Both the position numbers and the translations under genes were made by a program. Of a stretch of DNA of 64,000 nt, positions 30,026 through 30,573 are shown piece by piece. Source of the stretch: Schmidtea polychroa (lineage: Eukaryota); the NCBI GenBank assembly GCA_044892525.1, contig CM097885.1:1364001-1428000 (forward strand). Reading direction: 5' to 3'. Position 1 is the first letter of the stretch, and each line of letters begins with the position of its first letter. Under the pieces are notes generated by a model that was not told where the DNA came from, ran no database searches, and saw only the letters and a list, made by a program, of their open reading frames with translations.

Positions 30026-30211
30026 TTAATATTTATTTAAATATTTAAATAACATATACAATAAAACAACTCCTGTTGTGAGTTTAATATAGTTTTTCAT
30101 TTTTCTTTTGATTTCATCAGTTTCTTTAGCATTGCGGGCGAGTTGATTGAGTGTATCCCACCCGCCATTATCTTCTACCCATGGACTAAACTTGGATTTG
30201 ATTATCTAAAA

Positions 30212-30272
<61 letters not shown>

Positions 30273-30573
30273 TTACTTCTAAAGACCACTGATAATAATG
30301 TTCTGAGTCATGTTGGCTTTTCGCAATGATTATCTTCATGTAGGTGAACCCTACAATAATTATTGTCCATTTCATGTCTTCATCGCAGAGACATTGAAAT
30401 ATATTGTTAAAATAATTCTTCTTTGATTCAAGACAATCCATATCAAGCATGCTCTGGTAGTCGATATGGTTGCCTTCAATAATTTGTTCGGTCCGATTGA
30501 CCAGGAAATTGAGGCTGTCGACTATATTCGCTGTGACTAGTTCATTTAGAACGTTTTCAATAAATTTAGACAT
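30026..30573 (-). CDS. Bcl-2-family protein (158 aa after removing intron 30206-30276)
   Basis: Exon 1 has BH1-like IFQCLCDEDMKWTIIIVGFTY. Exon 2, absent from the ORF track, reads IIKSKFSPWVEDNGGWDTL (BH2) and ends in a hydrophobic tail LTTGVVLLYMLFKYLNKY. Confidence 0.85.

What the first reader, a model, noticed from the sequence alone, without database searches (positions are those of the whole stretch)
30026..30573. Hidden spliced viral Bcl-2 homologue
Seen: the ORF track misses it because an intron (71 nt with ATT expansion; 44 nt in copy 2, same phase-0 position) separates BH1 (KWTRILVGF in copy 2) from BH2 (PWVEDNGGW / PWIEANGGW) and a C-terminal membrane anchor. Known: adenovirus E1B-19K and herpes/pox vBcl-2 proteins block apoptosis. 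Inference: an anti-apoptotic factor in a Polinton; the NWGR motif is altered to KWTR/KWTI.
Basis: partly seen in the sequence, partly recalled or inferred. Interest (0 to 1): 0.88.

Follow-up and report, generated by a model that had tools for sequence, protein, structure and literature searches.

The report
Intron-split Bcl-2 gene in Polinton elements
A virus-like mobile element present in thousands of copies in this animal genome carries its own two-exon gene for a Bcl-2-type cell-death regulator, most likely to keep the host cell alive, which adds a new member to a kind of gene already noted in related elements.

Summary
Both window copies (30573..30026 minus; 54135..54649 plus) have a 99-codon exon 1, a GT..AG intron (71 and 44 nt, phase 0, same codon) and an exon 2 of 59 or 57 codons ending in a hydrophobic tail.

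**Family.** The product belongs to the Bcl-2 family. A 96%-identical copy with an in-frame intron, read through with X at its stop, scores 34.4 bits on PF00452 (cut-off 31.4). A 158-position profile equal to the spliced protein hits Bcl-xL and A1 in the PDB across the junction (E=1.3e-4). In 1.84 billion proteins it finds five outside relatives, all PF00452 members.

**Splicing.** It is supported by comparison only: 58 of 60 genomic copies keep GT..AG, intron lengths fall in all three frame classes, and 14 of 14 homologues show a gap exactly over the intron. No RNA junction was seen.

**Fold and context.** The AlphaFold models were too poor to test the fold. The surrounding genes are Polinton/adintovirus-like.

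**Novelty.** Bcl2 homologues are already noted in adintoviruses (PMC8502044) and in planarian Burro retroelements (PMC6431247). This is a new member of a known kind, with an unusual intron position. Anti-apoptotic activity is inferred, not tested.

The parts
30603..30610 (-). TATAAATA box about 36 nt upstream of the copy 1 ATG, with a CCAAT-like box further upstream
   Evidence: Read. A TATA-like word sits at -35/-36 in 56 of 60 genomic copies. The background is AT-rich, so this is suggestive only.
30277..30573 (-). Copy 1 exon 1, 99 codons: N-terminal helices, degenerate BH3-like stretch, BH1 (MKWTI, Arg replaced by Ile in this copy)
   Evidence: Aligns to BH1 of A1/Bfl-1, Bak and Bcl-2. ESM Atlas nearest named clusters carry PF00452 (run on exon 1 of copy 2).
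30206..30276 (-). Copy 1 intron, 71 nt, GTAAAT..(ATT)n..TTTTTTAG, phase 0
   Evidence: In 60 genomic copies, 58 have GT..AG and lengths run from 32 to 131 nt in all three mod-3 classes. Homologues have a gap exactly here.
30026..30205 (-). Copy 1 exon 2 (59 codons plus stop): BH2 (PWVEDNGGWD), linker, C-terminal tail anchor
   Evidence: phmmer against the PDB gave 93 hits at E<=10. The 60 shown are all Bcl-xL/Bcl-2; the best is 4qnq_A at E=0.0014, aligned through BH2 and the membrane tail.
54099..54106 (+). TATAAATA box 36 nt upstream of the copy 2 ATG
54135..54431 (+). Copy 2 exon 1, 99 codons, BH1 = MKWTRILVGF
   Evidence: PF00452 E=0.11, model positions 14-66.
54432..54475 (+). Copy 2 intron, 44 nt, GTAATA..TTAAC..TTTTCTAG, phase 0
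54476..54649 (+). Copy 2 exon 2 (57 codons plus stop): BH2 (PWIEANGGW) and tail anchor
   Evidence: PF00452 E=0.36, model positions 86-100.
25711..26466 (-). Element 1 rve integrase (context)
   Evidence: PF00665, 35 bits, E=1.8e-8.
27725..28183 (+). Element 1 TBP-like gene (context)
   Evidence: PF00352, 58.2 bits.
30684..31190 (+). Divergently transcribed neighbour: hydrophobic N-terminus, coiled-coil-like middle, hydrophobic end
   Evidence: A homologue is present in 52 of 62 loci that carry the Bcl-2-like gene.
29585..29983 (+). Convergent neighbour: acidic repeat protein with a Cys-rich end
   Evidence: A homologue is present in 59 of 62 loci.
51150..52016 (+). Element 2 A32-type packaging ATPase (context)
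   Evidence: PF04665, 31.8 bits.
52658..53248 (-). Element 2 PLA2-like gene (context)
   Evidence: PF08398, 32.5 bits.
56467..56931 (-). Element 2 TBP-like gene (context)
   Evidence: PF00352, 53.2 bits.
58461..59141 (+). Element 2 integrase C-terminal part (context)
   Evidence: rve_3 E=0.005. The translation matches the element 1 integrase.
60791..61729 (+). Element 2 double-jelly-roll capsid protein (context)
   Evidence: PF21738, 64 bits.

Best explanation
The finding is a two-exon gene for a small (156-158 aa) tail-anchored Bcl-2-family protein. It is an accessory gene of a very abundant Polinton/Maverick (adintovirus-like) element family in an AT-rich animal genome, probably a dugesiid planarian; that host assignment is an inference. 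The host spliceosome removes a short AT-rich intron after codon 99. This joins the BH1-bearing exon to the exon that carries BH2 and the membrane anchor. By analogy with cellular pro-survival Bcl-2 proteins and the Bcl-2 homologues of adeno-, herpes- and poxviruses, the protein is expected to insert by its tail into the mitochondrial outer membrane. There it would hold host BH3-bearing death effectors in its BH1/BH2 groove, so that the cell survives while the element is expressed and replicates. Shown here: family membership by sequence, the gene's fixed place in the element, purifying selection between element lineages, and an exon structure that requires splicing. Inferred: that splicing actually occurs, the membrane location, and the anti-death direction of action.
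For: **Family membership**
- PF00452 scores 34.4 bits (E=3.4e-8, model positions 6-100 of 100, cut-off 31.4) on L045. L045 is a copy 96% identical to window copy 1 whose 48-nt intron is in frame, read through by reference with X at the TAG. The b-type copy L019 scores 24.8 bits, E=3.3e-5.
- The same Pfam model run over the whole genome picked up such copies at 30-34.5 bits.
- Profile A4 has 158 positions, equal to exon 1 plus exon 2. Against the PDB it gave 132 sequences at E<=1. The 60 shown are all Bcl-xL, A1, Bax or Bcl-2. The best E is 1.3e-4, in one stretch spanning the junction.
- The same profile against 1.84 billion proteins gave 6 hits at E<=1e-3. One is the family's own unspliced exon 1. 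The other five (best P0003, E=1.5e-12) all pass the PF00452 cut-off.
- Exon 2 alone hits Bcl-xL BH2 plus its membrane tail at E=0.0014.
- For exon 1 alone, the nearest named ESM Atlas clusters carry PF00452 (score 0.92, 18 of 30 hits). Recognition is low, so this is a lead only.

**Splicing**
- Of 62 fetched loci, 60 have both exons. Of these, 58 keep GT..AG. Intron lengths of 32-131 nt fall in mod-3 classes 2, 0 and 1 in 45, 9 and 6 loci. Both exons are open in 55 of 60.
- BLASTP against the genome's own gene L062 (E=6e-15) places a gap exactly over the intron-coded residues.
- In alignment A5 all 14 outside homologues have that same 16-column gap and nothing else at the junction.
- Exon 2 has no Met before residue 36.

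**Selection**
- dN/dS between subfamilies is 0.07-0.21.

**Context**
- Integrase, capsid, ATPase, PLA2-like and TBP-like genes lie within 10 kb.
- The same two flanking genes occur in 52 and 59 of 62 loci.
- There are more than 2,300 first-look candidates in the genome.
- A second Polinton lineage (L075) has an intronless Bcl-2 gene next to a TBP-like gene.
Against: - No spliced junction was seen in the contigs of four public runs.
- The protein collections hold only unspliced exon 1 ORFs of 103-108 aa and no 156-158 aa product.
- Both AlphaFold models of the read-through form are of low confidence (pLDDT 47 and 55). Foldseek rows, although all Bcl-2 family, have E>=9e-3 and TM 0.23-0.35. The fold is therefore not shown.
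- The window copies, tested exon by exon, are far below the Pfam cut-off. Copy 2 scores 13.5 and 11.9 bits; copy 1 gives no hit.
- BH1 departs from NWGR: Asn is replaced by Lys and the conserved Gly by Thr. Window copy 1 also has Ile for the Arg.
- The BH3-like stretch has G-N instead of G-D, and no Leu four residues before it.
- Some introns are only 32-41 nt.
- Within a subfamily dN/dS is about 1 (L021 against L045, few changes). Element 1's polymerase region is cut by in-frame stops. The window copies may therefore be dead.
Confidence: 0.72

Rival explanations
1. The protein is a real Polinton-borne Bcl-2-fold protein, but it does not block death. It could act as a Bax/Bak-like killer or pore former that helps release of particles. 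It could instead have a non-apoptotic role, for example in mitochondrial dynamics, autophagy or calcium handling.
For: The BH1 Gly that pro-survival proteins need is replaced by Thr. The family profile also reaches Bax (E=1.2e-3) and Bak. Passages of PMC8998228 read say that changes at this Gly alter BH3 selectivity or suggest another function.
Against: The best profile matches are the pro-survival Bcl-xL and A1. No clear BH3 motif of the killer type is present. The host-type relatives L062 and P0003 also carry Ser at this place, so the change belongs to the lineage. Viral Bcl-2 homologues known so far are pro-survival; this is recalled knowledge, not a call.
Confidence: 0.15
2. The gene is a passenger: a captured host gene fragment that is carried along and decays, with no use to the element.
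For: Its nearest relative is a single-copy gene of the same genome (L062). Many element copies are visibly degraded.
Against: dN/dS between element subfamilies is 0.07-0.21 with saturated dS. The gene holds a fixed place between the same neighbours in 52-59 of 62 loci. A TATA word is conserved at -35/-36 in 56 of 60 loci. A second Polinton lineage keeps its own version.
Confidence: 0.07
3. There is no splicing. Only the exon 1 ORF (about 107-124 aa, running into the intron) is made, and the BH2/tail ORF is a relic.
For: No junction contig was found. Only unspliced exon 1 ORFs are in the protein collections.
Against: Exon 2 is conserved under purifying selection (dN/dS 0.17-0.36). GT..AG is kept in 58 of 60 loci while intron length drifts through all frames. 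Homologues run without a gap across the junction.
Confidence: 0.06

Closest known systems
Adintovirus accessory gene class 'Adintoc5:Bcl2' (Starrett et al. 2021, PMC8502044; passages of section 3.2 read, rows of Supplementary Fig S2 read)
   Same: A Bcl2-like gene carried by a Polinton/adintovirus-type element with PolB, integrase, capsid and ATPase genes. It is drawn beside the integrase. PLA2-like and TBP-like genes are also described for such elements.
   Different: No sequences were on hand, so direct relatedness was not tested. The examples seen in the supplement were from fish and other animals. No flatworm name occurred in the part of the file that is held, and that file was cut when stored. 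No intron is mentioned for the gene.
BCL2-like motif of Burro giant Gypsy retroelements of planarians (Grohme et al. 2018 as reported in Arkhipova and Yushenova 2019, PMC6431247; passages read)
   Same: A Bcl-2-like domain carried by a high-copy mobile element in what appears to be the same kind of genome. I saw such a domain here in L076, in the order gag zinc knuckle, Bcl-2-like (29.2 bits), hydrophobic segment, env-like region.
   Different: There it is a domain inside a polyprotein of thousands of residues in a retroelement. Here it is a separate small spliced gene of a DNA element. The tree does not resolve how the two are related.
[quoted passage not shown]
   Same: BH1 and BH2 at the usual spacing, an NGGW core, a tail anchor, and size. 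These are the best PDB profile matches.
   Different: BH1 is KWTR rather than NWGR. BH3 is degenerate. The N-terminus is very short. The gene lacks the canonical exon boundary at the GGW Trp (described in PMC8998228 section 2.2, passage read) and has an intron 16 codons upstream instead.
Host-type paralogue in the same genome (L062, G000:C1:268544203-268544481) and its outside relative P0003
   Same: These are the closest sequences: BLASTP E=6e-15 and profile E=1.5e-12. The spacing from BH1 to BH2 is the same, the N-terminal helix is similar, and Ser/Thr replaces the BH1 Gly.
   Different: L062 is single-copy and has GT directly after the GGW codon, the canonical site. Identity is only about 24-30%.
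Viral Bcl-2 homologues of adenoviruses (E1B-19K), herpesviruses and poxviruses
   Same: The proposed role is the same: a virus-carried Bcl-2-fold protein that blocks host cell death (recalled knowledge). One ESM Atlas neighbour cluster mixes E1B_19K and Bcl-2 families from Preplasmiviricota (score 0.84, a lead only).
   Different: No Pfam match to Adeno_E1B_19K or Poxv_Bcl-2-like was reported. Unlike most of those, this protein keeps recognisable BH1 and BH2 sequence.

Membership tests
Bcl-2 family (Pfam PF00452) | Profile score at or above the curated cut-off (31.4 bits) | tested here: met
   34.4 bits, E=3.4e-8, on L045, which is 96% identical to window copy 1, read through with X and still carrying 16 intron-coded residues. 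The b-type copy L019 scores 24.8 bits, below the cut-off. The window copies could only be scored exon by exon, giving 13.5 and 11.9 bits or no hit.
Bcl-2 family (Pfam PF00452) | BH1 motif (NWGR core) | tested here: inconclusive
   Trp and Arg are kept in 10 of 11 aligned members. Asn is replaced by Lys and Gly by Thr. Window copy 1 has Ile for Arg. The stretch aligns to BH1 of A1 and Bcl-xL.
Bcl-2 family (Pfam PF00452) | BH2 motif (W..NGGW) | tested here: met
   PWVEDNGGWD and PWIEANGGWG align to Bcl-xL PWIQENGGWD.
Bcl-2 family (Pfam PF00452) | BH3 motif (L-x3-G-D) | tested here: inconclusive
   The Pfam alignment starts at model position 6 over the stretch ..EQIIEGNHID.., which has G-N and no Leu at G-4. 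This is read by eye.
Bcl-2 family (Pfam PF00452) | Globular bundle of about eight helices around a central hairpin | tested here: inconclusive
   The models are all-helical (7-8 helices) but of low confidence, mean pLDDT 47 and 55. Foldseek rows are all Bcl-2 family but with TM 0.23-0.35. The exact spliced product could not be folded with these tools.
Bcl-2 family (Pfam PF00452) | C-terminal tail anchor | tested here: met
   A hydropathy peak (15-residue mean 1.6-1.9) lies at residues about 138-155 and is flanked by Lys/Arg. It aligns with the Bcl-xL membrane tail.
Bcl-2 family (Pfam PF00452) | Exon boundary at the Trp of GGW (a trait of the cellular genes, not of the protein) | tested here: not met
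   The coding sequence is continuous through GGW-D/G. The only intron lies 16 codons upstream. The genome's own genes L058 and L062 have GT right after GGW.
Bcl-2 family (Pfam PF00452) | Binds BH3 ligands and regulates mitochondrial cell death | not testable with these tools
   This needs binding and cell assays.
Polinton/Maverick (adintovirus-like) element | Retrovirus-type (rve) integrase | tested here: met
   PF00665, 35 bits against a cut-off of 32.6, at 25711-26466.
Polinton/Maverick (adintovirus-like) element | Protein-primed type B DNA polymerase | tested here: inconclusive
   PF03175, 22.9 bits against a cut-off of 25.8, on a 156-aa piece at 18366-18836. Neighbouring ORFs abut at single stops.
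Polinton/Maverick (adintovirus-like) element | Double-jelly-roll major capsid protein and A32/FtsK-type packaging ATPase | tested here: met
   PF21738, 64 bits, at 60791-61729. PF04665, 31.8 bits, at 51150-52016.
Polinton/Maverick (adintovirus-like) element | Adenain-type protease and terminal inverted repeats | tested here: inconclusive
   No protease family was hit among the 39 ORFs of 150 aa or more that I scanned. A 1,962-nt, 99% inverted pair flanks the copy 2 region, but it contains genes.
Adenovirus E1B-19K (PF01691) | Profile match | tested here: not met
   Not reported for the exons at E<=10 or for the read-through forms at E<=1.

The most novel reading that the evidence does not exclude
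A Polinton lineage took up a flatworm-type Bcl-2 gene as an intron-free copy. The L075-type lineage still has it without an intron, and neither lineage has the canonical GGW intron. The window's lineage then gained a new spliceosomal intron 16 codons upstream, which now carries fast-changing ATT/AT microsatellites. Three kinds of mobile element in one genome carry Bcl-2-like genes: two Polinton lineages and the Burro retroelements. This would mean that blocking cell death is a general condition for spreading in this animal's long-lived, constantly dividing cell lineages. The Bcl-2 gene is far more diverged between the two window elements (61-76% in DNA) than its flanks (88-97%). It would then be an exchangeable cassette, shuffled among element backbones by recombination.
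Probability: 0.3. Interest if true: 0.7.

Novelty: new member of a known kind. Interest (0 to 1): 0.5.

Why it matters
Virus-carried Bcl-2 homologues are a classic way for large DNA viruses to keep the infected cell alive. Polintons/adintoviruses are thought to be related to the ancestors of several such viruses, and their accessory genes are barely studied.

Here the gene is easy to study. There are thousands of copies and several diverged subfamilies under purifying selection. The same genome also holds an intron-free sister version and a host-type paralogue.

The gene offers a test of whether these elements behave as viruses that manage host cell death. It also offers a possible dated case of intron gain inside a mobile element. 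Finally, it shows that ORF-based annotation misses spliced accessory genes in such elements.

Tried and rejected
**RNA evidence**
- The look-up of sequencing runs listed no holder on record as RNA.
- I laid the contigs of X1, X2, X4 and X7 on 53500-55500 at 90% likeness. No joint at 54431/54476 was listed, and 3 joints were not shown. Two X1 contigs begin exactly at 54476, which may only reflect branch points among copies. This tells nothing for or against expression.

**Structure**
- AlphaFold on the L045 read-through with a family-only alignment gave pLDDT 47.
- With 14 outside homologues added it gave pLDDT 55, pTM 0.31.
- Foldseek against the PDB gave only weak rows.
- I judged the models unfit to test the fold. 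The hydrophobic intron-coded insert and the shallow alignment are likely causes.
- Complex prediction, meant to dock the exon 1 and exon 2 products as two chains, was not available.
- The ESM Atlas does not accept the read-through form.

**Sequence searches that gave little**
- Pfam on single exons at E<=0.01 gave nothing.
- phmmer of exon 1 against the PDB gave nothing at E<=10.
- The search for homologous proteins with exon 1 returned only one cluster, of unspliced exon 1.

**Wider context of relatives**
- Scans of viral contigs with A6 and with P0005, and of metagenome contigs with P0005, confirmed no relative.
I therefore could not check whole-element structure at other loci or the surroundings of L062.

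**Tree**
- A tree of 18 rows left 9 of 15 inner branches unresolved. The only grouping is weakly supported (83/86). It puts the Polinton proteins, L062, L075, P0003, P0005, P0006 and the Burro domain together, apart from the other Bcl-2 genes. No donor can be named.

**Earlier findings of this scan**
- Nothing was returned.

Full report
**What is in the sequence**

On the minus strand an ORF starts at ATG 30573 and runs 99 codons to 30277. It is followed by GTAAAT, an (ATT)n run and TTTTTTAG, spanning 30276..30206 (71 nt). A second open frame of 59 codons then runs from 30205 to 30029, with its stop at 30028..30026.

On the plus strand a second copy has the same layout. Exon 1 is 54135..54431, a 44-nt GT..AG intron is 54432..54475, and exon 2 is 54476..54646 with the stop at 54647..54649.

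The two copies are 67% identical in protein in each exon, and the intron follows the same codon in phase 0. The motifs named are there: MKWTI and MKWTRILVGF, PWVEDNGGW and PWIEANGGW, and a hydrophobic tail between basic residues.

**Is it a Bcl-2 family protein?**

Taken exon by exon the signal is weak.
- Pfam gives nothing at E<=0.01.
- At E<=10 only copy 2 shows PF00452. Exon 1 has E=0.11 on model positions 14-66, and exon 2 has E=0.36 on positions 86-100.
- Exon 2 of copy 1 searched against PDB sequences gives 93 hits at E<=10. The 60 shown are all Bcl-xL or Bcl-2, the best at E=0.0014, aligned through BH2 and the membrane tail.
- Exon 1 alone gives none.

The decisive step came from the genome itself. 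A scan of the 781-Mb assembly with PF00452 reads through stop codons. It picked up copies of this gene whose intron length is a multiple of three, at 30-34.5 bits with one TAG inside.

I then read two such copies through by reference with X at the TAG.
- L045, 96% identical to window copy 1, gives PF00452 at 34.4 bits and E=3.4e-8 over model positions 6-100 of 100. This is above the curated cut-off of 31.4, even with 16 intron-coded residues in the middle.
- L019, 92% identical to copy 2, gives 24.8 bits and E=3.3e-5.

I next built an alignment in which the intron columns fall out of the profile (A4, 158 positions, equal to exon 1 plus exon 2).
- Against the PDB it gives 132 sequences at E<=1. 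The 60 shown are all Bcl-xL, A1/Bfl-1, Bax or Bcl-2. The best E is 1.3e-4, in a single stretch running from before BH1 across the junction to beyond BH2.
- Against 1.84 billion representative proteins it gives six hits at E<=1e-3. One is the family's own unspliced exon 1 (P0002). The other five (P0003 at 1.5e-12, then P0004 to P0007) all pass the PF00452 cut-off.
- The exon 1 profile alone gives 16 weak PDB hits at E 0.2-1. Ten are named A1, Bak or BCL-2. One is 3qbr, which I recall to be a schistosome Bcl-2 protein. Five are unrelated: four falcipain entries and one inositol-phosphate synthase.
- ESM Atlas features of exon 1 of copy 2 put PF00452 clusters nearest (score 0.92; 18 of 30 hits). 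Recognition is low, so this is a lead only.

**Is it spliced?**

There is no RNA evidence. No listed run is on record as RNA, and no contig of the four runs I laid joins 54431 to 54476. The protein collections hold only unspliced exon 1 ORFs of 103-108 aa.

The comparative evidence is nevertheless consistent. I fetched 62 loci. Fifty were the best hits to the two window copies (20 and 30). Twelve I picked from lower in the lists: ten more diverged, two with long open frames.
- Sixty of the 62 have both exons; L017 and L073 lack an exon 2 match.
- Fifty-eight of the 60 have GT..AG.
- Intron lengths run from 32 to 131 nt and fall in mod-3 classes 2, 0 and 1 in 45, 9 and 6 loci.
- Both exons are open in 55 of 60.
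- When the intron length is a multiple of three, the frame meets the TAG of the acceptor. Read-through can therefore never give the protein.
- Exon 2 has no Met before residue 36.

Homologues confirm the junction. BLASTP of the genome's own gene L062 against the L045 read-through (E=6e-15) opens a gap exactly over the intron-coded residues. In alignment A5 all 14 outside homologues have that same 16-column gap and are otherwise continuous across E99|I100.

Selection points the same way. Between subfamilies dN/dS is 0.07-0.21 overall and 0.17-0.36 for exon 2 alone. Within a subfamily it is about 1 on very few changes, as expected for inserted copies that decay.

The integrase gene of the same element has a similar GT..(ATT)n..TTTTAG stretch at 26057..25902. 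It splits the catalytic-core sequence TDLG|KEF. This suggests that short microsatellite-bearing introns are a habit of this element. It is in frame there, so it is not proof.

**Context**

Within 10 kb of the two copies lie these genes:
- an rve integrase (35 bits);
- a double-jelly-roll capsid protein (64 bits);
- an A32-type ATPase (31.8 bits);
- a PLA2-like gene (32.5 bits);
- two TBP-like genes (58 and 53 bits).

The polymerase match is weak (22.9 bits) and that region is cut by stops. This gene set matches what Starrett et al. describe for adintoviruses (PMC8502044; passages read).

The Bcl-2-like gene sits between the same two neighbours in 52 and 59 of 62 loci. It has a TATAAATA word at -35/-36 in 56 of 60 loci. 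Each of the two exon 1 searches of the genome gave about 2,400 first-look candidates. All 150 scored in each had E below 1e-49. By my own count of the tables, 139 and 132 of the 150 were free of stops. These are the best-scoring rows, so the share is biased upward.

**Relatives in the same genome**

- The closest is L062, a single-copy PF00452 gene (46 bits). It has GT directly after the GGW codon, as has L058.
- That is the canonical exon boundary of cellular Bcl-2 genes (PMC8998228 section 2.2; passage read).
- The Polinton gene is continuous there, and its intron lies 16 codons upstream.
- A second, multi-copy lineage (L075) has an intron-free 152-aa Bcl-2 ORF (32.5 bits) next to a TBP-like gene (53.6 bits). 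This is another Polinton family with the same kind of cassette.
- A Bcl-2-like domain (29 bits) also lies inside ORFs of about 3,050 aa in very many copies, between a gag zinc knuckle and an env-like region.
- That order matches the Burro retroelements of planarians, whose BCL2-like motif is in print (PMC6431247; passages read). For this reason I think the host is a dugesiid planarian. This is an inference and was not verified.

**How it most likely works**

The protein has BH1 and BH2 at the normal spacing, a hydrophobic central helix and a tail anchor. The most likely mechanism has three steps:
- insertion into the mitochondrial outer membrane by the tail;
- capture of host BH3-bearing effectors in the BH1/BH2 groove;
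- delay of cell death while the element is active.

This is inference from the family and from viral Bcl-2 homologues.

Several departures deserve attention.
- BH1 is KWTR, with Thr at the Gly that pro-survival proteins usually need. The host-type relatives have Ser there.
- PMC8998228 (passage read) notes that Ser at this place in mouse Boo changes BH3 selectivity.
- Window copy 1 further has Ile for the Arg, a change private to it among the 11 aligned members. Copy 1 may be impaired.
- The BH3-like stretch is degenerate.

**What failed**

Both AlphaFold jobs gave low-confidence models of the read-through form, with pLDDT 47 and 55. Foldseek listed only Bcl-2 family chains, but at E>=9e-3 and TM 0.23-0.35.

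**Novelty**

Bcl2 homologues in adintoviruses are stated in PMC8502044. Section 3.2 says so, and Supplementary Fig S2 shows a gene class 'Adintoc5:Bcl2' beside the integrase. The Burro BCL2-like motif is also known.

Searches of the paper library found no description of a Bcl-2 gene in planarian Mavericks. The term sets were 'adintovirus'+'bcl-2', 'adintovirus'+'bcl2', 'polinton'+'bcl-2', 'maverick'+'bcl-2'+'transposon', 'maverick'+'polinton'+'planarian' and 'schmidtea'+'maverick'. A 2026 preprint reports Maverick expansions in Dugesia but, in the passages I searched, no Bcl gene.

I rate this a new member of a known kind. Its points of interest are the non-canonical intron, the intron-free sister lineage, and the strong divergence of the gene (61-76% in DNA) relative to its flanks (88-97%) between the two window elements.

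Noticed in passing
window 2833-8431 and 8434-14032: A perfect 5,599-nt palindrome, 100% complementary with 2 nt between the arms. It carries mirrored ORFs, including a DUF4371-like one. It is either a real foldback or an assembly artefact.
   Followed up: no
window 27725-28183 (+), 56467-56931 (-); L075:2394-2861 (+): The element carries its own TBP-like gene with only one TBP repeat matched (53-58 bits). Its neighbours have TATAAATA at a fixed distance from the ATG. An element-encoded TATA-binding factor for its own promoters is a possibility.
   Followed up: partly
window 25902-26057 (-); I-run in 58461-59141 (+): The integrase ORF is interrupted at TDLG|KEF by GT..(ATT)n..TTTTAG. 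Unspliced, this reads as a run of about 50 Ile. It is probably a second short microsatellite-bearing intron.
   Followed up: partly
L075 (G000:C1:15404500-15407499), ORF 1278-1733 (-): A second multi-copy Polinton-type lineage has an intron-free 152-aa Bcl-2 gene (PF00452, 32.5 bits) beside a TBP-like gene. At least eight places have the same 152-aa open frame.
   Followed up: partly
L076 (G000:C1:6417500-6420499), 1486-1764 (+): A Bcl-2-like domain (29.2 bits) lies inside ORFs of about 3,050 aa in very many copies, between a CCHC gag knuckle and an env-like region. It matches the published Burro retroelements of planarians.
   Followed up: partly
window 53520-56950 against 27700-31200: The two elements are mosaics. 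The coiled-coil and TBP-like genes are 88-97% identical in DNA, while the Bcl-2 gene and the acidic gene are only 46-76% identical. This suggests cassette exchange or much older alleles.
   Followed up: partly
window 51596-53557 and 61926-63887: A 1,962-nt inverted pair at 99% contains the ATPase end, a 172-aa ORF and the PLA2-like gene, and flanks the copy 2 region. All four laid runs show loose ends at 53556/53557, so most copies continue differently there.
   Followed up: no
window 30684-31190 (+), 53547-54035 (-): The gene's divergent neighbour encodes about 165 aa with a hydrophobic N-terminus, a coiled-coil-like middle (weak Fib_alpha-type hits) and a hydrophobic end. It may be a membrane protein of the element.
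   Followed up: no
window about 44500-51100 (-): An LTR-retrotransposon-type block (RVT_1 and Integrase_H2C2 matches, in broken frames) lies between the two Polinton regions.
   Followed up: no
P0005 and P0006 clusters: Outside relatives also look multi-copy. P0006-type 122-aa Bcl-2 proteins sit on several Dreissena polymorpha chromosomes. The P0005 cluster has 13 members on contigs up to 13.7 kb. They may be carried by mobile elements too, but their context could not be fetched.
   Followed up: partly
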